DNA of 64,000 nucleotides from Squalus acanthias (taxonomy: Eukaryota), in the NCBI GenBank assembly GCA_030390025.1, contig CM059432.1, positions 1,426,001-1,490,000 of the forward strand, written 5' to 3'. Every line of letters begins with the position of its first letter. The stretch's first letter is position 1. The notes under the pieces were generated by a model. It ran no database searches. It worked only from the letters and a program-made list of their open reading frames with translations, and was not told where the DNA came from. A program made the position numbers and the translations under genes. Below are positions 21,316 to 48,061 of the stretch, in pieces.

Positions 21316-23842
21316 TAACTAAGACAAACCTTCTATTCTGTCACAGTACACGTTTCAGCTGCACCCAGTGCAGTGTCCCCAGGGTGGCTCGCAGAATCCA
21401 CCGAGACCAACGGCGTGGCTGGTGGCAGCCATTTCTGACGTCTCTGGTTGAAATGATCAACGCCACAACTATAATACTGAGAGAAAACAAGAGACTAAAC
21501 TATTTATTTTTAAATTATGCAGAAATTCCATATTAAGATAGCAGGAATGATGGTTCTTTTCCCCTCCTTGGGCGAGGAGAAGTATTGTCTCCATAGGGGA
21601 CCAAGACCCGGTCCTCCCCAGCTCCCAGTATTTCAGATAACCCAAGTGGTGCTACTTCTCCAAAAGGGTCAGTCAGCTCCACATCTTTCACCTGCCAGAG
21701 TAGGAAACGCTTACTAAGTTAGAACACAAATTAGAAAATGTTATAAACGATTGCAAAGTTTGACAAACAGGCTCACTATGTCAAATTATAGGAGTTGGAG
21801 CAGAATGCTCATACTTGTATCCAAAGGAGATCATTCCTAAACATCTGGGGCTCTTTCCACACAAAATGGCCAAAGTGCAGGGGAGTCAGGGGAGGGGCAA
21901 TGGGCTCTATCCCTCCCATTCCCTTACTGAAGATGAATCAAAAGTTGAACATTTTTGGGGAACTTTAAGCCTGAAGGCCTAAAATATCATGCTATTTATA
22001 TCATGCTCCATCATAAAGTGTTGGCTTGGCTCAGTTCCTTGCACTCTTGCATGAGTCTCATGGTTGTGAGTTCAAGCCAGACTTCAGGACTTGAGTATTC
22101 AATCTAGGTTTATACTTGGTGCTGCCCAACTGCCTGTGCAGCATCAAGTCACAACTTTTTACAACTTGTATCTGCCAACACCAATGCCTTCTTCTTTGGC
22201 TCCAATCATAAACTTCCCACCTCCCAGCCCACTTCCTGGCAGCACGCCCAGGCTGAACTAGATGGCGCACAGCCTTGGCATCCTGCGTGACCTTGAGTTG
22301 AGCATAACACATTATATCCAATCCATTTACGTCTGCTTACTTCCACCTCCTAATATCAGCTGCCTTCATCTCTACCCAACCTCAATCATCCCTTCCTTAT
22401 CCCCAGGTTCGACTTCTTGAATACCCTCCTCATCAACGTCCCAAGCTCCACCCTGTACAAACGCCAAACCTCCCTGAATTCTGCCATCCAATCCCATACT
22501 AAAAGTCTCGTTTGCCTATCACCCTGTTCTTGCTGACCCTCGCTGGTTCTCTTGTTGTCCTCATCCTCTTTCACAAATCCCTCTGTGGCCTTACTCCACT
22601 GTATCTCTGCAATCTCCTCCAGCCTCGTGTCCCAGTTCACACCCTTCACTCTCCTAATCCTGACTCTCACTACGTTTTCACTCCCTCCCTCCCTCCCTCC
22701 ATGACCATCTGCTCCAACATGGGGCCAAATGACCGACTCCTACTCCTACATCTTATGTTCAATGATTTGTGTGTGCCACGTAGGACTATAGGTGGAGTCT
22801 GCTGGAGACAATCAATACACTTTCCTAATTAACAATGCAAGCAACCAATGTTGCCAATACAGAAAATAACTTGGATCAATTAGATTATATCATTTTGAAA
22901 TCACGCTGTACCACTAAGACCATGCCACTTATCCAAAACATTCAAGAGCAAGGAAAGAGGCGAGAAAATCTTAATACAATGGTTTGTCCTTTAACATTTG
23001 TCAGGTACATTCCAAATGCAATAAATGATGTTTATAATTATTAAAGTCATGCATTCTATAATCGAAAATAACAGTACCAAGCAATGAAGAGGTAATCAGA
23101 TCACCAAGAGAATGAACACTGTTGGTGATACTAGAGAACGGAGTATCTCTTACAGTTCATTAAAATTTAGGCCTTGCGATCAAATTTAGTCTTTCAAATG
23201 TGCTGCAAGATAAAAACAAAAAAAAATGCATTTCCACTATTTAAATCCATTACATTTAAACATTTGTTCTTTGCACAGTTTGGCCAACATACTGCAGAAA
23301 ATATTCTCAACTCACCTTGTCTATTTGGCCCATGTATTAAACATTCATGTCTACACCATCAGATAGAATGATTCCAATTCAAAAACAAATGCAAAATCAA
23401 ACTACGGGAGAAATTAAGACTACACCCTTGGGATGAAATAAAGATTATTTTAGCCCTCTGTGTTGCAGTGATACCTTGGTATCAAACATTCCACAAGTTA
23501 AAAAAAAAAAATTATCCTATAAACACTTACATTTTTTGATAGCGCTAGCTTATTTTTCTAGGGTACCTTACTAATAACACATTTGAATAAGCTGTATTTT
23601 ATAAAAGTAGAGCCGTATGGTTTAAAAACTGAAAAGTAACAGAGAACCAAGTCTTTGCTTCCACAGATGTTAACGTACGTGAAGCAGAATATGAAGTACA
23701 ATTTTCTCTCAACTCTTTTATTCAAATACTCTGTGCTAGACCTTGTATGGCTTGGCTGGAGGGCATCGTGTAGCTCGTGGGAACTCTAGGTACAATTACG
23801 GCTCTATCTAACAAGCTATGTTCTTCAACATTACTGGCTCAC

Positions 23843-24002
23843 CTGTATTTTGTGATGCCATTGGCTTGTGGCGGACTGCTGCCATGCTTTTCCTGCTCAG
23901 ACATATTTGACCTTTCGGTATTGCTGCAGTTCAAAGGTTCTTCCTCAGCTGAACGGCTCGTTACAGTCTCAAATCCACTCAAAGAGTCCGCAGAGTCAGA
24001 AT
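23843..24002 (-). CDS. OSBPL1A: Next coding exon of ORP1 (linker before the ORD; contains the ORP1S-equivalent Met)
   Basis: Acceptor gtttttgaactcag|, donor CAG|GTGAGC; 160 nt, phase 1 in (matches previous exon), phase 2 out. Reads (D)SDSADSLSGFETVTSRSAEEEPLNCSNTERSNMSEQEKHGSSPPQANGITKY(R), colinear with recalled human DSESERSLSRLEAVTARSFEEEGEHLGSRKHRMSEEKDCGGGDALSNGIKKHR. Absent from the ORF track; found by manual translation. Confidence 0.88.
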
Positions 24003-25808
24003 CTGAGTTCAAAAACAAGCCATGTTAATGCAGCACTTTGCAAAGCAAGACCGTACAGTGGTAACAACTGACACCATTCACTCTGTACCAACACTCTGAA
24101 ACCTGACCCTGTGCAGTATTGTTTACAGACTCCTTCTGGTAACTGCCCAAATATAAATGATCCTTACTTGTATACTACGATTCTCAAAACCAGTGCTGAA
24201 GATCCATTCAAATGTAACTAAACCACAATGAACTAAATATTTCATCTTGCCCGTTCTCCTAAATTACATGCAACACGAACACACACATCTGTTTTAAAAA
24301 CCTATTTTTCCATGTGTTTTGTAGAAATAAAAACCTATGCAATAAACACACACTAAATATTTGCCAAATATTTAGTGTAAGTTTAAAAAAAAACACTCAA
24401 AAGTAATTACAAGCAAATTTCTGCATAGTCAGTTCTCAGTAATGATTTTCATCCCAGAACCAGCTCATTAAAGTCCCACATTTACTGCAGAATACAAAAC
24501 ATGTTCTTGCTCATGAATTTTAAGTGAGCACGGTTTGACGTCAATGGAATCCAATGCCAACTCCTTCAGCTGAGCTGGCTTTGCAATGGAGCTTCCAATG
24601 CCTGTCTAATGACTTTAGTTATTGGTCGGTCAGGCCTACAATATTGAAATAATGAGATATTTAAAAAAGATTTTGATGAAAACAAAAGAAAAATAATCAG
24701 ATATAAATTAAAGAAACTCTTTTCCAAAACTGGTCGCCTAAAAGTTAAAAAGGTGGCATTAGGAAACTAAAAAAATCTACAACATTTTTTGTATGTCATT
24801 ATTGCTGTTTAATGTGTAAATAGATCAAGGGATGAAAAACGATTTTAATCTTATGATTGAATCTATTTTTCTCAGGTTAGTTTTCTTCGGCAGCACCTCC
24901 CAAACCCGCGACCTCTACCAATTAGAAGGACAAGGGCAGCAGGCGCACGGGAACACCATCACCTCCAAGTTACACACCATCCTGACTTGGAAATGTATCT
25001 CCGTTCCTTCGTCGTCGCTGGATCAAAATCCTGGAACTCCCTCCCTAACAGCACTGTGGGAGCACCTTCACCACACGGACTGCAGCGGTTCAAGAAGGCA
25101 GCTCATCACCACTTTCTCAAGGGAAACTAGGGATGGGCAATAAACGCCGGCCTTGCCAGCGACACCCACGTCCCGAGAATGAATTAAAAAAAAAAAATCA
25201 ACCTACTAGAATAATGACAATCGGTACATAATAAACAGATGCATCATTTGCCATGGTCTGGGCTGCCTGGCTCAGTAACTCCAACCACAACGTCGGAGCT
25301 CAACATCAGAGCAACTCAAAAATCCTCTTTCCGACCCCAGTGCAACCAGTCCCCCGCAACACAATAAAATTCAGTCCAAACCACTTTTGGCTCAAGCTAC
25401 AAAAAACGCTGAAAATAAAGTATATTTATTTGAATTTTCTCTCCCCGTCCACCACCCCACCATTCATACATCATTGCTACTTGCAAATGTTCTGCCTGGT
25501 TGCCGTGTGACATGGGTCATCCAGTGTACTCTAGGTATCTTAGCGCCACAGCAGCAGACTGGAAACTGCAACTTCCACAAAGCAACTCACTCGCACAGAA
25601 TACACCAACAAGAGCTGGGAATGCAGCCAAGTTGAAGGCTCAGTTTCTAGTTGTCATGGTGTGCTTCAGGTATTGCAGATCACAGGACGAAAACAATTCC
25701 CATCATGCAGCTCTCTCTCGTACATATACAGATTGCGTCTACGGGAGCTGCAAAAAAATCATCACCAAAGGCCCAAGTGATATTTCCAACTTCGGGACTA
25801 AAGCAACT

Positions 25809-26460
25809 GCGAGGGGGCGAGACAGCGCGCGAGGGGGCGAGACAGCGCGCGAGGGGGCGAGACAGCGCGCGAGGGGGCGAGACAGCGCGCGAGGGGGCGA
25901 GACAGCGCGCGAGGGGGCGAGACAGCGCGCGAGGGGGCGAGACAGCGCGCGAGGGGGCGAGACAGCGCGCGAGGGGGCGAGACAGCGCGCGAGGGGGCGA
26001 GACAGCGCGCGAGGGGGCGAGACAGCGCGCGAGGGGGCGAGACAGCGCGCGAGGGGGCGAGACAGCGCGCGAGGGGGCGAGACAGCGCGCGAGGGGGCGA
26101 GACAGCGCGCGAGGGGCGAGACAGCGCGCGAGGGGGCGAGACAGCGCGCGAGGGGGCGAGACAGCGCGCGAGGGGGCGAGACAGCGCGCGAGGGGGCGAG
26201 ACAGCGCGCGAGGGGGCGAGACAGCGCGCGAGGGGGCGAGACAGCGCGCGAGGGGGCGAGACAGCGCGCGAGGGGGCGAGACAGCGCGCGAGGGGGCGAG
26301 ACAGCGCGCGAGGGGGCGAGACAGCGCGCGAGGGGGCGAGACAGCGCGCGAGGGGGCGAGACAGCGCGCGAGGGGGCGAGACAGCGCGCGAGCGGGCGAG
26401 ACAGCGCGCGAGCGGGCGAGACAGCGCGCGAGCGAGCGAGACAGCGAGCGAGAGAGAGCG
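25809..26460. repeat. CpG-rich 20-bp minisatellite (gagggggcgagacagcgcgc), about 32 units
   Basis: 15 perfect units, one 19-bp unit at 26111, 13 perfect units, then variants grading into GAGC/GAGA sequence. Confidence 0.96.
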
Positions 26461-27102
26461 CGAGCAACCGAGCCAGAGCGTGGAGCGCCCACACGAGCAA
26501 GGAGCGTAAACGTGAGAGACAGAAAGCGAGAGCGCGAGCGCCCGAGCAAGAGCGACCGCGAGACCGGGCTACACCATTTTGCTTAGAGCTGGATGACATT
26601 TTGCTTTACCCTGCACTACCAACAGCTCCATGGCAAAAACAAGCATTTTTGTTGAGTTAGACAAGTTACACCTCCCAATATTTTTCAGAACCAGTGATCG
26701 TATTGAATATACACCTGTAAAGGTGGGCCATCTGTATTATATCTTCATCGTTGCTCTATACACTATTTGTACTGTTAGCATGTCATATTTTCAAGAAGCG
26801 ACACACATTAAACCAGTACTATCCTCACGTGGAATTTGTGCTAAATAATGCATGACCACTTAAACTAAAATAGCAGCACAAGGAATGAAAGAGATCAAGT
26901 GAAGCACACCAACTTCCTTTTATATATAATCAATTACTTTCCTGGACTCCCTAAATAATGACATTGAAATTGTACAAAAGTGTTGGGATTTAACTCATTT
27001 CATGCATTATCCACGCCCTCAGCATTTTGAAGACCTGGATCAAATCCCCACTTAAAACAGAATCAAAATATCCCAAGTGACTATACCAGTAAACTACACA
27101 CA

Positions 27103-30092: not shown

Positions 30093-30237
30093 AAAAATAT
30101 TACGCATAATAAAGAGTATGTCTCATGTGCAATTACATAATGGAATCGGTGTTTCCACTTATGCAGATATTTTTCGTCTGTTTTACTTGTAAATCCAATG
30201 ACATCGCTGACCACAACAAATCCTTTACTCAACTCAC

Positions 30238-30400
30238 CTGAAAGAGCATCGTAGAACTCATCATCACTCAGCACACTCTGGGGCGGGGACCCTTTGACTA
30301 ACGATTGCTCAAGTTCATGATGCTCACAGGCCAGAGTCTGGAGAGCTTCGGAAAGTATCTTGTTCTTCTCTTGTTCCTGCTCTAATCGCAGATTGCGCAC
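30238..30400 (-). CDS. OSBPL1A: Internal coding exon of oxysterol-binding protein-related protein 1 (coiled coil + FFAT motif)
   Basis: Translates VRNLRLEQEQEKNKILSEALQTLACEHHELEQSLVKGSPPQSVLSDDEFYDALS, near-identical to recalled human ORP1L (VRNFKLEQEQEKNKILSEALETLATEHHELEQSLVKGSPPASILSEDEFYDALS). Acceptor ctctccccag| after a TC-rich tract, donor CAG|GTGAGT; 163 nt, phase 0 in, phase 1 out. Confidence 0.93.
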
Positions 30401-37816: not shown

Positions 37817-38791
37817 GATCTAGACGAGGGAACTAGATGTAATATCTCCAAGTTTGCAGACGACACAAAGCTGGGTGGGCGTGTGTGCTGTGAGGAGGAT
37901 GCCGAGAAACTCCAGTATGATTTGGACAGGTTGGGTGATTATACTGCATTTGCCATGCATCTGCCCAATGTGGATAAATGCGAGGTTATCCACTTCGGTG
38001 GCAAAAACAGGAAGACAGATTATCTGAACGGCAATAGATTGGGAAAAGGGGAAGTGCAACGAGACCTGGGTGTCCGTGTGCACCAGTCGCTGAAGGTAAG
38101 CATGCAGGTGCAGCAGGCGGTTAAGAAGGCAAATGGTATGTTGGCCTTCATAGCGAGAGGATTGGAGTACAGGAGCAAGGATGTCTTGCTGCAGTTGTAC
38201 AGGGCCTTGGTGAGACTGCACCTTGAGTATTGTGTGCAGTTTTGGTCACCTTATCTGAGGAAGGATGTTCTTACCATGGAGAGTGTGCAGCGAAGATTCA
38301 CCAGACTGATACCTGGGATGGCAGGAATGACGTATGAGGAGAGATTGGGTCGATTAGGCTTATATTCGCTAGAGTTCAGAAGAATGAGAGGGGATCTCAT
38401 TGAAACTTATAAAATTCTAACAGGACTAGACAGACTAGATGCAGGAAGGATGTTCCCGATGGCAGGGGAGTCCAGAACCAGGGGTCACAGTCTAAGGATA
38501 AGGGGTAAGCCATTTAGGACTGAGATGAGGAGGAATTTCTTCACCCAGAGAGTGGTGAACCTGTGGAATTCTCTACCACAGAAGGCAGTTGAGGCCAATT
38601 CATTAAATATATTCAAGAAGGAGTTAGATATATTTCTTAAGGCTAAAGGGATCAAGGGATATGAGGAGAAAGCAGGGACAGGGTACTGAATTTGGATGAT
38701 CAGCCATGATCTCATTAAATGGCGGAACAGGCTCGAGGGGCCGAATGGCCTACTCCTGCTCCTATCTTCTATGTTTCTATGTCTATGTTTC
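37817..38791 (+). mobile_element. 5'-truncated CR1, same subfamily as 16256-20032
   Basis: ORF 37883-38689; TSD taaat (37812-37816, 38792-38796); same 3' UTR type. Confidence 0.9.
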
Positions 38792-39664
38792 TAAATCGTC
38801 GGGGAAACTGATCACGTTTGCAGATGATGCAACGGTACGGGCGGCTGTTAGGATTTAGATGGGAATAGAAGATTATAAGGCGACCTAGATGTGATGGAGG
38901 GATGGGCCCACACCTGGCAGATACCTTTCAATATGGATAAATGTAGTCTAATGCACATGGGTAGGGACATTACCAAGAAACAGTACTTGCTCAAGGCTGC
39001 TGAGCGAGAGAAGGACCCGAGGTTTATAATCTTTAATGGTCCACAACTAGTGTGAGGCTATTGCAGTCCTAACCCTAAATACAAAAGAAACACTATACTG
39101 TCTCTGTACAAGACAACGGTTAGGCCCTATGTAGACTACTGTGCCCCCTTTTGGACCCCTGTCGTGGCGGGTGATAGAGGCAATGGAAAAGGTTTAGGAG
39201 GAGGACCAATGGATTGATATCTAGTTTAAAAGGCCCCCTGTTACAATAGGATGGGAGCGCCGAAGATTTTTACTCTACAAAAGCATAGACTTCGAGGCGA
39301 CTTGATTGAGGATTATATGGAAATGTTCAGATTTGGTCTAAACGCATAGAACTGGGTCAGATGCCAGGAGCTGCTTCTTTCTTTGCAGAGTCGTCAACCT
39401 CCGGAACAAGTTGCTGGCACGTGCAGTGAGTGTGGATTATGACAGCCTGAAATAGTCTAGCCTTCCTGATCACAGGGATAGCCACTGCTACCACCCTGGG
39501 GGGGCAGTTACAGCTAATACTGAGCATTTAATTTTGAAATACCTGTAATTATTACTGTCCATAATACTGGATAAAATTATTGAGCACTTGGCTGCAAAAG
39601 GACAGAGATGGGTTACCAGGTTAGGCAGATGGGTGGCAGAAACAGTTCAATGTCAGAAAATATT

Positions 39665-39906
39665 AATGTGAGAAGTCGCACAACAGCAGGTTATAGTCCA
39701 ACAGCTTTATTTGAAATCACAAGCTTTCGGAGCGCTGCTCCTTCGTCAGGTGCTCCTTCGGCACTTCACCTGACGAAGGAGCAGCGCTCCGAAAGCTTGT
39801 GATTTCAAATAAAGCTGTTGGACTATAACCTGGTGTTGTGCGATTTCTCACATTTGTCCACCCCAGTCCAACACCGCATCTCCACATCATGGCTACTATC
39901 GACACC
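39665..39906. mobile_element. Penelope-like inverted terminal-repeat pair, each arm with a hammerhead motif
   Basis: Arms 39665-39752 and 39767-39854, 86/88 complementary, 14-bp spacer; right arm continues into an unpaired extension ending atggctactatcgacacc. Confidence 0.82.
39766..39802 (+). ncRNA. Minimal type I hammerhead ribozyme motif
   Basis: Stem I tcac/gtga, core CTGACGA (39770-39776), stem II ggagc/gctcc, GAAA (39791-39794), palindromic aagctt in place of stem III. Activity untested. Confidence 0.75.
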
Positions 39907-40107
39907 AGAAAATATTAAGTAAGGCATTTTAGAAATAAGAACAGGGAAATTAAGTAACAGCTTAAATGGGAAGATTTTAAATTAAGTAGAGGAGCAGAGT
40001 GACCTGTGTATACACAGGTTAATGAACAGTTACAGTACAAATACACATGAACATATGAAAAATGAAGGACAGGAAAAGATCTACTGGTCCACCCAGCCTG
40101 TCCCATA

Positions 40108-40903
40108 GGAACATAAGTAGTAAGAGCAGGAGTCGGCCATACGGCCCCTCGAGCCTGCTCCGCCATTCAATAAGATCGTGGCTGATCATCGACCTCAACT
40201 CCACTTTCCCGTCCGATCTCCATATCCCTTGATTCCCCTAGAGTCCAAAAATCTATCGATCTCAGCCTTGAATATACTCAAAGACTCAGCATTCACAGCC
40301 CTTTGGGGCAGAGAATTCCAAAGATTCACAACCCTCGGAGTGAAGAAATTCCTCCTCATCTCGATCTTAAATGGCCGACCCCTTATCCTGAAACTATGCC
40401 CCCTAGTTCTAGACTCTCCAGCCAGGGGAAACAACCTCTCAGCATCTACCCTGTCAATCCCCTTCAGAATCATGTATGTTTCAATGAGATCACCTCTCAT
40501 TCTTCTAAACTCCAGAGAGTATCGGCCCAATCTACTGAATCTCTCCTCATAGGACAGCCCTCTCATCCCAGGAATCAATCTAGTGAACCTTCGTTGCACC
40601 GCCTCCAAGGCAAGTATATCCTTCCTCAGATAAAGGAGATCAAAACTGTGCACAGTACTCCAGGTGTGGTCTCACCAAGGCCCTGTACAATTGTAGCAAG
40701 ACTTCCTTACTCTTATACTCCAACCCGCTTGCAATAAAGGCCAACCATGCCATTTGCCTTCCTTATTGCTTTCTGTACCTGCATGCTAGCTTTCTGTGTT
40801 TCTTGCACGAGGACACCCAAATCTCTCTGAACACAGAAAGTTTCTCACCATGTAAAAATTATTCTGTTTTTCTATTCTTCCTACAAAGCGAATAATAACC
40901 TCA
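40108..40903 (-). mobile_element. CR1 3' fragment
   Basis: ORF 40195-40653 plus 3' UTR. Confidence 0.88.
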
Positions 40904-41904
40904 AGCGGTTGCGATGGCTAGTGCATAGTAGATAACGCCATTAAAAAGCAAACAGATCCTGGTTTTGATTCATTACAGAAACAAGAAGCTAATCTACAAG
41001 CCTCAGTTAGGTTGCAGTTGGAGTATCGTTTAGTTGGTAATACCCCCCGAGGGATGATACAAAAACGATGGAAAAGGTGCACCATATCCTTCTAGGATGT
41101 CCGGAGCAATCGTTCCCTTTAAGCTGCGCAGCCTCGCAGCGCTTCAGGGATCCCGCGCAGCCGACTGTTTCAACGTAAAAACCGCGCATGCGCTGTATTT
41201 TGAATGGCCCTTGTGGCAAATTACAGGGAACATTGGTTACAAGGTACCAAAGGTCATCATTCTGACAAAATTAGGGCTTTTTAACACTGAATTGGAGAAG
41301 GTTACGGGTTGGTCCTCAAGATTATGAACGATTGCAAGAAGACGATTAGCGATGAGCAAAGAACTTGCATTTATAGAACATCTTTCACATAAAGTGCTTC
41401 TCAACCAATGAATTATTTTTGAAATGTAGGCACCGCTCTGTAGATAGTTTCCACTGGTTGGCAAGACAGTAACAAGCAGGTACAGAGCTAATAACCACAA
41501 GAAGAATTAAAGGGAAGTTGGAAAACATTTCTTTACACAGAGGATGATTGACCTTTAGAATTCTGTGACAAACGTTGCTGAAACAGAGTCCTTAAAAAAA
41601 GGTTAATTAGATTAGACGCTTCAAAAATATTAAAGGAGGTATTGGGAGCGAGCAAGGAGAGTGGAATTAAATGGCAGTGGAGGAAAACGCCGGCGCGGAC
41701 TTGATTTGCCAAACGGCCCTTTGCTGTGCAGTAGCTTTAAACAGCTCTATGACTCCAAGCTAAGAGTACAGTGAAACATTCAAAATCAGCAGAGGCCAGC
41801 ACTGGGTGCATCGTTCAGAAGGATATGTGATCAACACTAAAAATCAGCCAAGAACAGCAACAGATAGAACTGGTTACGGCCAATAAATATTGGGGCTGAG
41901 CAAC

Positions 41905-42045
41905 AGAGGTTCTGACGAAAGGTCACCGACCCGAAACGTTATCTCTGTTTCTCTCGTCACAGATGCTGCCTGACCTGCTGTGTGTTTCCCCAACATTTTC
42001 TGTTTATATTTCAGATTTCCAGCATCCGCAGTATTTTGCTTTGAA
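41905..42045 (+). mobile_element. Short Penelope-type repeat with hammerhead motif (second family)
   Basis: agaggtt-CTGACGA-aaggtc-acc-gaccc-GAAA-cgtt-atctct then acagatgctgcctgacctgctg...; inverted partner at 42268-42393. Confidence 0.72.
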
Positions 42046-46159: not shown

Positions 46160-46565
46160 AGGATATACAGCACAGAAACAAGCCATTCAGGCCCAACTAG
46201 TCCATGCCGGCGTTTATGCTCCAGTCTTTCCTCATCTAACTATCAGCATAAACCTCTATTCCCTTCTCCCTCATTTGCTTATCTAATCGCCCCTTAAATG
46301 CATCTATACTATTTGCGTCAACCTCTCCCTGTGGTAGTAAGTTCCACATTCTCACCACTCTCTGGGTAAAGAAGTTTCTTCTGAATTCCCCATTTGATTT
46401 CTTGGTGACTATCTGATATTGATGGCCTCTAGTTTTGCTCTTCCCCATAAGTGGAAACACTCTCTCTGTATCCACTCTATCAAAACCTTTCATGATTTTA
46501 AAGACCTCTATTAGGTCACCCCTCAGCCTTCACTTTTCAAGAGAAAAGAGACCCAGCCTTTCTCC
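46160..46565 (-). mobile_element. CR1 3' fragment (same subfamily as 49885-50360, +)
   Basis: ORF 46236-46493 (TRGHQYQIVTKKSN). Confidence 0.82.
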
Positions 46566-46666
46566 CCAGTTTCATTCCACCCAAAATTCTGCCCAGTCAT
46601 GTCAGAAATAGTTGAAATAAAAATCAATAAGTGTGTGTATATGCATGTGTGCGCGCGCGCGCGCAA

Positions 46667-46667
46667 A

Positions 46668-46700
<33 letters not shown>

Positions 46701-46745
46701 GAGAGAGGGAGAGAGAGAACGAGACGGAGAGAGAGAGAGAGAGAG

Positions 46746-46782
<37 letters not shown>

Positions 46783-47727
46783 ACGAGAGGGAGAGAGAGC
46801 GAGAACGAGAGGGAGAGAGAGAGAGAGAGAACGAGAGGGAGAGAGAGAGAGAGAACGAGAGGGAGAGAGAGAGAGAGAGAACGAGAGGGAGAGAGAGAGA
46901 GAGAGAACGAGAGGGAGAGAGAGAGAGAGAGAACGAGAGGGAGAGAGAGAGAGAGAGAACGAGAGGGAGAGAGAGAGAGAGAGAACGAGAGGGAGAGAGA
47001 GAGAGAACGAGAGAACGAGAGGGAGAAAGAGAGAGAGAACGAGAGGGAGAAAGAGAGGGAGAAAGAGAGAGAGAACGAGAGGGAGAGAGAGAGAGAGCAC
47101 GAGAGAGAGAGAGCACGAGAGAGAGAGAGCACGAGAGAGAGAGAGAGAGAGAGAGAACGAGAGAGAGAGAGAGAAAACGAGAGAGAGAGAGAGAGAACGA
47201 GAGGGAGAGAGAGAGAGAACGAGAGGGAGAGAGAGAGAGAACGAGAGGGAGAGAGAGAGAGAACGAGAGGGAGAGAGAGAGAACGAGAGGGAGAGAGAGA
47301 GAACGAGAGGGAGAGAGAGAGAACGAGAGGGAGAGAGAGAGAACGAGAGGGAGAGAGAGAGAACGAGAGGGAGAGAGAGAGAACGAGAGGGAGAGAGAGA
47401 GAGAGAACGAGAGAGAGAGAACGAGAGGGAGAGAGAGAGAGAACGAGAGGGGGAGAGAGAGAGAGAACGAGAGGGAGAGAGAGAGAGAACGAGAGGGAGA
47501 GAGAGAGAGAGAACGAGNNNNNNNNNNNNNNNNNNNNNNNNNNNNNNNNNNNNNNNNNNNNNNNNNNNNNNNNNNNNNNNNNNNNNNNNNNNNNNNNNNN
47601 NNNNNNNNNNNNNNNNNNNNNNNNNNNNNNNNNNNNNNNNNNNNNNNNNNNNNNNNNNNNNNNNNNNNNNNNNNNNNNNNNNNNNNNNNNNNNNNNNNNN
47701 NNNNNNNNNNNNNNNNNAACGAGAGAG
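46667..47727. repeat. Compound (GA)n tract with recurring gaacgagaggga unit; contains a 200-N assembly gap at 47518-47717
   Basis: Direct reading. Confidence 0.95.
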
Positions 47728-48061
47728 ACACACACACAAACTGAGCCAGACTGACACTAAAGATTGACACCAGTAATTTCCGCAGGGTTCTCCTGATTTC
47801 CTGCCGGAAGTTTGGGGGACACCCCTGAAAAACAGCGTAAACGGCCACTTCCGCTGAAGGGGTCTTGAGAAGCGGGAGATCAGGGAATCCCTGTTGAAAT
47901 TCTACCCAGAAGTTTTTGGTCTTAAAGATAGAATGGATTTTTGTAACTCAGATGAAAAGAATTAACTTCAAACAGAAAGCTATTTGAAATAACGGGGAAC
48001 GGAATAAAAATCAGAAAATAGACAAGTGCAGCGACAGCAAGTTATTTTCAAAAAGCTTTCT

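What the first reader, a model, noticed from the sequence alone, without database searches (positions are those of the whole stretch)
39665..39906. Inverted pair of minimal hammerhead ribozyme motifs in an 88-bp palindrome
Seen: two 88-bp arms (2 mismatches, 14-bp spacer), each reading cac-CTGACGA-a-ggagc-agc-gctcc-GAAA-gctt-gtg on its own strand. Established: Penelope-like elements carry minimal type I hammerheads in their terminal repeats, have a palindromic vestigial stem III thought to work as dimers, and often form inverted repeats. Inference: either strand's transcript contains a ribozyme motif, but a transcript spanning both arms (such as OSBPL1A pre-mRNA) would fold into ~88 bp of dsRNA that masks it and could be an ADAR or Dicer substrate.
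Basis: partly seen in the sequence, partly recalled or inferred. Interest (0 to 1): 0.75.

Follow-up and report, generated by a model that had tools for sequence, protein, structure and literature searches.

The report
Back-to-back Penelope retrotransposon stubs with hammerheads
This palindrome is one ordinary insertion of two back-to-back end fragments of an abundant Penelope-like retrotransposon in an OSBPL1A intron, but its thousands of sister copies show that the two halves are likely copied together from one RNA, and a small share stop exactly at the predicted hammerhead cut, a likely fossil trace of the ribozyme cutting in vivo.

Summary
Observation confirmed. 39667-39905 is a single insertion with a 13-bp target-site duplication; a related organism has the empty site. 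It consists of two head-to-head pLTR ends of a Penelope-like element (intact 888-aa RT ORF elsewhere; at least 67,316 end copies in the genome), each carrying the element's minimal hammerhead, in an OSBPL1A intron. The inverted-pLTR-plus-tail layout is published, and the scan noted it before in two other genomes. This copy is probably inert: on either strand the antisense arm is transcribed first.

The sister copies add mechanism. 98 of 99 pairs join one tailless end to one tailed end. Arm lengths are coupled (20 long/long, 67 short/short, 4 mixed). Either arm can be the longer (35 vs 39). Short arms stop at a TATA/Inr-predicted start. This favours two-site priming on one RNA over fold-back copying. 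Arms starting exactly at the predicted hammerhead cut are about 3-5-fold over neighbouring positions, often with both arms stopping there: likely copies of self-cleaved RNA, though an RT pause is not excluded. No cleavage, editing or expression was tested.

The parts
39654..39666 (+). Target-site duplication, left copy (13 bp)
   Evidence: Exact repeat of 39906-39918; single copy at the empty site of a related organism (run X23, record 25)
39667..39752 (-). Inverted, tailless pLTR arm; element positions -3 to +82 (0 = C of CUGA)
   Evidence: 84 of 88 letters match the intact copy L081; 3' end in the tailless class
39718..39752 (-). Minimal hammerhead motif of the left arm, 3-bp stem I; predicted cut between 39721 and 39720; the copy in sense with the host pre-mRNA
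   Evidence: Motif match; predicted to misfold with the filler; activity not tested
39753..39761 (+). Junction filler, templated from the left arm (10-nt direct repeat 39736-39745 / 39751-39760)
   Evidence: end-joining origin is inferred
39762..39905 (+). Direct pLTR arm with tail; starts at element position -8, beside the predicted transcription start
   Evidence: Matches L081 from -8; contigs of other copies diverge into upstream element sequence at 39762 (table 7)
39766..39802 (+). Minimal type I hammerhead motif: 4-bp stem I, 5-bp stem II, palindromic vestigial stem III; predicted cut between 39798 and 39799
   Evidence: covariation among subfamilies; activity not tested
39853..39905 (+). 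Tail, present on one arm only, ending 17 nt inside the ORF (ATG at 39889)
   Evidence: ORF start identical in place to intact copies
39906..39918 (+). Target-site duplication, right copy
30206..30400 (-). OSBPL1A coding exon, nearest detected exon downstream of the insertion
   Evidence: tblastn of shark ORP1 proteins, 84-98% identity; earlier exons lie beyond the window end in L205

Best explanation
The palindrome is one insertion of two head-to-head end fragments of a Penelope-like retrotransposon, likely made when the element's protein nicked both target strands 12-13 nt apart and primed two cDNAs at two fixed sites on the same stretch of element RNA. Shown: target duplication, empty site, parent element, one tailless plus one tailed end. 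Inferred: one nick primes at about +80, the other in the tail at +119 to +142; for short copies the template is the 5' end of a transcript that starts about 7 nt upstream of the hammerhead, so both cDNAs run out after 90-145 nt; host end-joining links the two cDNA ends by microhomology or filler. The hammerhead is cargo: it was uncut in the template of this copy and is predicted to be masked in any read-through RNA, because the antisense arm is always made first. In about 1-3% of arms the template had likely already been cut by the hammerhead.
For: Empty orthologous site with one copy of the duplication. Exact duplications of 9 nt or more in 110 of 129 pairs, 77 of them 12-13 nt, 72% AT. In loci from the first 14.5 Mb of contig C1: 250 arms, 99 head-to-head pairs, 98 with one tailless and one tailed end (about 50% expected if sites were chosen independently, p 1e-28). 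Of 91 pairs with resolved junctions: 20 long/long, 67 short/short, 4 mixed (Fisher p 5e-16); tailless arm longer in 35, tailed arm longer in 39. Arms of a pair differ at 33 of 612 diagnostic sites (5.4%) against 28% for shuffled partners. Longer arm ends at -7 or -6 in 29 of 75 pairs; TATA-like box at -37, with an AT-rich box at about that place in several subfamilies. 103 short pairs fall in 83 junction classes, so the palindrome is rebuilt, not inherited from one master. In vitro, an Anolis Penelope-like protein cuts and extends both strands and starts at two internal RNA sites, and uses uncut RNA (PMC11167929). Cut-site peak: arms starting at +29 number 186 against 35, 55, 33, 63, 56 at +25, +28, +30, +31, +36; 496 against 62-112 after capture correction, 303 after removing microhomology junctions; partner ends within 3 nt without microhomology in 12 of 45 distinct junctions against 0 of 27 controls, p 0.002.
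Against: Discordance at diagnostic sites (5.4%) is above the background of 70 in 7331 (0.95%), mostly at one position, so some pairs may come from two RNAs or two pLTR copies. 52 of 250 arms are single in the sample, and 19 of 129 pairs gave no exact duplication. Junction asymmetry could be altered by later deletion. The extra G before arms that start at -7 (39 of 49) is mostly explicable by the partner arm, and G is also common at neighbouring stops, so the cap is not shown. In vitro no difference of start site between strands was seen and no RNA-seq reads ended at the Anolis hammerhead site (PMC11167929). 13 of 30 and 2 of 28 inspected +29 junctions are microhomology joins. Symmetric junctions without microhomology also occur beside other short palindromes (hand count about 13 of 50), so centre deletion may add to the both-arm class. 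No RNA end, cleavage or protein activity was measured.
Confidence: 0.7

Rival explanations
1. Fold-back (self-priming): one cDNA is made from the tail, its 3' end snaps back and is copied, and the copy is cut or stops at the tailless site.
For: Proposed for head-to-head Penelope structures (PMC3846280, passages). Arms share subfamily letters, lengths are coupled, and junctions often show 1-9 nt overlaps, all also expected from fold-back.
Against: It requires the tailless arm to be nested in the tailed arm, but the tailless arm reaches further 5' in 35 of 91 pairs against 39, sometimes by 40 nt or more; one insertion has a tail-only partner beside a long tailless arm (L137); arms differ at diagnostic sites above background.
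Confidence: 0.17
2. The palindrome is a non-autonomous element (retrozyme-, SINE- or MITE-like) that moves as a unit.
For: All 40 best matches span both arms at 92-95% identity; a few junctions recur (up to 6 of 103 in one class; three loci share one junction).
Against: 83 junction classes among 103 short pairs; tail length and centre differ between copies; the same two ends bound inversions up to 2.7 kb; short copies lack the TATA box.
Confidence: 0.05
3. This copy is a host-adopted RNA element (switchable ribozyme or hairpin regulator) of OSBPL1A.
For: It lies in the intron and forms a near-perfect hairpin; Penelope repeats are heavily edited in lizard (PMC5625713).
Against: Absent at the orthologous site of a relative; its arm divergence (2 of 88) is like that of other copies; 9 kb from the nearest detected exon; longer inverted repeats of other elements surround it.
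Confidence: 0.04
4. For the +29 class only: reverse transcriptase pauses at the paired palindromic stem III (dimer fold) or palindrome centres are deleted later, without RNA cleavage.
For: The 6-nt palindrome ends at +28 and perfect palindromes centred on it are common (about 20 of the first 50 loci, hand count); similar symmetric junctions exist near +16.
Against: The excess is one nucleotide wide and includes solo arms abutting the duplication (4 of 58) and arms whose partner ends elsewhere without microhomology, which centre deletion cannot make.
Confidence: 0.3

Closest known systems
Endonuclease-bearing Penelope-like elements with inverted pLTR and tail (rotifer Pen2a_Av, Drosophila virilis Penelope; PMC3846280, PMC8557442, PMC2377424)
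   Same: Head-to-head inverted pLTR, tail on one arm reaching into the ORF start, target duplication, TATA plus Inr-like TCACT in the pLTR.
   Different: Here both arms are stubs without ORF body; copy number allows counts (98 of 99 pairs with one end of each kind, coupled lengths) that the passages read do not give.
Minimal hammerheads of metazoan Penelope-like elements (PMC4209133)
   Same: Type I, short stem I, unpaired base before stem II, G-C first pair, palindromic vestigial stem III; that paper also notes pairs on opposite strands 100-700 bp apart in Schistosoma.
   Different: Stem II is 5 bp; no shark example in the parts read; that paper states that in vivo evidence is lacking, whereas the +29 peak is a candidate trace.
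Anolis Poseidon PAc in vitro (PMC11167929)
   Same: Two internal start sites bounding the tail, both strands cut and extended, AT-rich targets, uncut RNA as main template.
   Different: There the hammerhead overlaps the start codon; here it lies 120 nt upstream. The paper's main text read here does not link the two sites to inverted insertions and found no reads at the cut site.
L1 twin priming (recalled, from no call)
   Same: Two target nicks prime two cDNAs on one RNA, giving an inversion inside one duplication.
   Different: L1 arms do not overlap and the second site varies; here both sites are fixed and arms mostly overlap fully, which needs strand displacement or a second RNA.
Retrozymes (PMC4918200 listing; bioRxiv 10.64898/2026.07.22.740005 passages)
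   Same: Non-coding, hammerhead-bearing, Penelope-related.
   Different: Retrozymes are direct or tandem repeats amplified as units; this is inverted and rebuilt at each insertion.

Membership tests
Penelope-like element (EN+) | Single ORF with reverse transcriptase | tested here: met
   888- and 896-aa ORFs in L081, L082; RVT_1 above cut-off
Penelope-like element (EN+) | C-terminal GIY-YIG endonuclease | tested here: inconclusive
   No Pfam GIY-YIG hit at E<=0.01; VVY...YIG motif at residues 787-804; PF01541 is listed for many relatives, e.g. turtle proteins at 43-45% identity
Penelope-like element (EN+) | ORF flanked by pLTRs, partial tandem or inverted | tested here: met
   L081, L084 have the repeat on both sides; L085 has an 1188-bp inverted end, L083 a partial tandem
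Penelope-like element (EN+) | Tail on one end, running into the ORF start | tested here: met
   98 of 99 pairs; window tail contains the ATG
Penelope-like element (EN+) | RT groups with Penelope-like RTs in a tree | not tested
   No labelled reference sequences were fetched; DKG and YIDD motifs present
Neptune clade | Extra Cys motif between RT and endonuclease | tested here: met
   C-x4-C-x2-C at residue 750; the feature is shared with Nematis (PMC8557442); clade not fixed by a tree
Minimal hammerhead ribozyme | Core CUGANGA...GAAA-NUH with stems I and II | tested here: met
   Both arms; among 74 long arms N7, H17 and loop II vary while core letters hardly do, partly by construction of the pattern
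Minimal hammerhead ribozyme | Covariation in stems | tested here: met
   One stem I pair: C-G 40, U-A 25, U-G 6, unpaired 3 of 74; 95.4% cells paired against 20-50% for slid controls; only one pair with a two-sided change, possibly a single event; outer stem I pair broken in 11 of 26
Minimal hammerhead ribozyme | Self-cleavage (as dimer or with protein) | not testable with these tools
   Only indirect: excess of arms starting at the predicted cut
Rfam hammerhead families | Match to a covariance model | tested here: not met
   No hammerhead model at E<=10 in 38000-42000
Retrozyme / non-autonomous unit | Copies inherit one fixed structure; hammerheads in direct repeats | tested here: not met
   83 junction classes in 103 short pairs; inverted layout

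The most novel reading that the evidence does not exclude
Penelope-like elements integrate by obligate two-site priming: a protein dimer uses both target nicks and two fixed sites on one RNA, which explains the class's inverted ends and one-sided tail; and this genome holds a few hundred insertions copied from RNA cut at the hammerhead site, genomic evidence that a metazoan minimal hammerhead cleaves in the germline.
Probability: 0.45. Interest if true: 0.7.

Novelty: new member of a known kind. Interest (0 to 1): 0.4.

Why it matters
The locus itself is ordinary. The family matters because two questions are stated as open in the papers read: how Penelope-like elements form their inverted-plus-tail structures (PMC8557442) and whether their minimal hammerheads cut in vivo (PMC4209133; no reads at the site in PMC11167929). 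Tens of thousands of young copies give countable answers and exact predictions (two start sites used once each, a start near -7, a cut at +28/+29) that an existing in vitro system can test. It also implies thousands of near-perfect 60-90-bp hairpins in shark introns in which the ribozyme is predicted to be switched off by geometry.

Tried and rejected
Rfam scan: no hammerhead; the miRNA hits are hairpin artefacts below cut-off. Solved-structure search with the ORF: no hit. Pfam scan of 72 minus-strand frames and a PH_8 genome search did not find the host exons; tblastn did. Expression: only contig data were available; the one presumed RNA run laid (X1) had almost no cover on the unique flanks, which shows nothing either way. 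Cap-derived G: suggestive but confounded by the partner arm, not used as proof. One search used a reference that held an inverted arm and gave false -98 ends; redone, where multi-reference matching overshoots short ends by a few letters, so the -7 mode is taken. One search ended in an error after printing its table. The 30 best-match loci are biased to the window's form and were kept apart from the C1 sample for the pairing and length counts, but pooled. A genome-wide count of whole palindromes was not obtained. A spliced 5' end was rejected: no AG before -7. Lunse et al. (PMC5785218) could not be read.

Full report
Observation. The inverted repeat is as described: 39665-39752 and 39767-39854, 88 nt, two mismatches, 14 nt apart. 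Each arm reads a minimal hammerhead motif on its own strand, with none expected by chance, and the region folds into one hairpin (z -22.6). Rfam has no matching hammerhead model. Positions below count from the C of CUGA as 0; the predicted cut lies between +28 and +29.

What it is. An exact 13-bp duplication bounds 39667-39905. A contig of a related organism runs from 39653 straight to 39906, that is, it has the empty site with one copy of the duplication (X23 record 25), so this is one lineage-specific insertion. The right arm continues into an ATG at 39889; in other copies that ATG opens an 888-aa ORF with a reverse transcriptase domain, flanked by the same repeat. Its closest named relatives are shark proteins (80-92%) and turtle proteins (42-45%), and many relatives carry a GIY-YIG annotation. 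A Cys motif before the endonuclease motif points to Neptune or Nematis (PMC8557442, passages); no tree was made. The genome holds 21,865 exact matches to a 28-letter hammerhead pattern and 67,316 to a body pattern. The host is OSBPL1A on the minus strand, with exons at 30206-30400 and 23842-23979 and earlier exons beyond the window.

Architecture of the family. I took loci from exact-match lists for the first 14.5 Mb of contig C1, leaving out one near-identical duplicate (L050); one duplicated insertion (L146) counts twice. Of 250 arms, 198 form 99 head-to-head pairs and 52 are single; 98 pairs have one end near +80 and one in the tail (p 1e-28 against independent choice). Duplications are mostly 12-13 nt and AT-rich (110 of 129 pairs, pooled with the 31 best-match pairs). 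Of 91 resolved pairs 20 are long/long, 67 short/short and 4 mixed; 7 were unresolved. In the first 5.58 Mb, 48 of 98 exact-match arms lie in short pairs, which would scale to over ten thousand such palindromes (extrapolation). The longer arm most often ends at -7 or -6 (29 of 75), at an Inr-like TCACTTC 30 nt below a TATA-like box at -37; a TATA plus TCACT was described in rotifer pLTRs (PMC3846280, passages), whereas the D. virilis promoter is TATA-less (PMC2377424, passages). Centres differ from copy to copy.

Mechanism. The strict pairing of the two end types and the coupled lengths suggest that both target nicks prime on the same stretch of RNA, one at each site; short pairs would come from the 5' end of the transcript and long pairs from the 3' pLTR. 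This joins two in vitro facts, extension of both strands and two internal start sites (PMC11167929, parts 1-2 of 4 and passages), which that text does not connect to inverted insertions. Fold-back copying, proposed earlier, needs the tailless arm nested in the tailed one; the tailless arm is longer in 35 pairs and the tailed in 39. Arms share subfamily letters (5.4% discordant against 28% shuffled), but that is above the 0.95% background, so a minority may use two templates. The joining by host repair is inferred from overlaps and fillers, including the templated filler here. An extra G before -7 is common (39 of 49) but mostly explicable by the partner, so capping is not shown.

The hammerhead. 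Across subfamilies one stem I pair changes from C-G through U-G to U-A, stem II keeps pairing, and N7, H17 and loop II vary; this is one compensatory pair, perhaps one event, and reflects selection on parent elements, not on this copy. The form matches the minimal hammerheads of PMC4209133 (parts 1-2 of 4), which were inactive as monomers and weak as dimers. In a head-to-head pair the antisense arm is transcribed first on either strand, so the ribozyme is predicted to be paired as it emerges; the copy in sense with OSBPL1A also has the weaker stem I. Editing is plausible by analogy (PMC5625713, passages) and untested.

A trace of cleavage. In the young subfamily, arms whose match starts at +29 behind two non-template letters number 186, against 35 (+25), 55 (+28), 33 (+30), 63 (+31) and 56 (+36). 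After correcting for capture, assuming even base use, this is 496 against 62-112, and 303 after removing the microhomology share seen in 58 inspected loci. In 12 of 45 distinct +29 junctions the partner ends within 3 nt without microhomology, against 0 of 27 controls drawn from 20 of 35 and 20 of 56 control loci (identical junctions were merged). By hand count of the first 50 loci listed, symmetric junctions without microhomology are about 14 in the window holding the cut (274 loci) and about 3-7 in three control windows (106-254 loci), but up to 13 in a fourth (146 loci), where subfamily loop letters blur the count. The simplest reading is that 1-3% of templates began at the cut. An RT pause at the paired palindrome, or deletion at palindrome centres for the symmetric class, remains possible.

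Novelty. The layout is published, and the scan described it in two other genomes. Searches for Penelope with twin priming, with pLTR/inverted/tail, with shark/palindrome, with both-strand integration since 2024, and with hammerhead/in vivo/cleavage site/genomic copies gave no listing that reports the pairing rule or a cut-site peak; subscription papers, Lunse et al., Arkhipova 2006, Repbase and Dfam were not seen, nor any supplements. Other papers: bioRxiv 2026.07.22.740005 (passages), PMC6765202 (passages), PMC4918200 (listing only). L1 twin priming and hammerhead numbering are recalled.

Verdict. New member of a known kind; locus ordinary and probably inert; interest 0.4 for the family-level evidence on integration and cleavage.

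Noticed in passing
window 38251-38663 and 40221-40633: 413-nt, 77% inverted pair of another repeat encloses the palindrome; many further inverted pairs lie in 36-44 kb, so the intron is rich in potential dsRNA.
   Followed up: no
window 46515-47947 and 25434-26657: Long stop-free stretches in several frames on both strands, probably low-complexity tandem repeats.
   Followed up: no
L081 3080-5746 (-), L082 3065-5755 (-): Uninterrupted 888- and 896-aa ORFs of the parent element, so the family is young.
   Followed up: partly
L012, L021, L061-L063, L066, L073, L074, L076, L079: Tails that run 85-180 nt into the ORF and then jump to a new pLTR copy, making partial tandems; two restart at position -7.
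   Followed up: partly
L137 (G000:C1:5873710-5874184), L117: Insertions whose partner arm is only, or little more than, the tail, beside a long tailless arm: a non-overlapping form.
   Followed up: partly
G000:C1:904275/904353 and seven other close pairs: A rare variant upstream of +36 is shared by both arms of eight pairs, again pointing to one source element per insertion.
   Followed up: no
L049/L050, L146: Insertions duplicated with their flanks, probably segmental or assembly duplications.
   Followed up: no
window 38800-39400: Looks like an older, decayed LINE fragment just left of the insertion site (read; label recalled).
   Followed up: no
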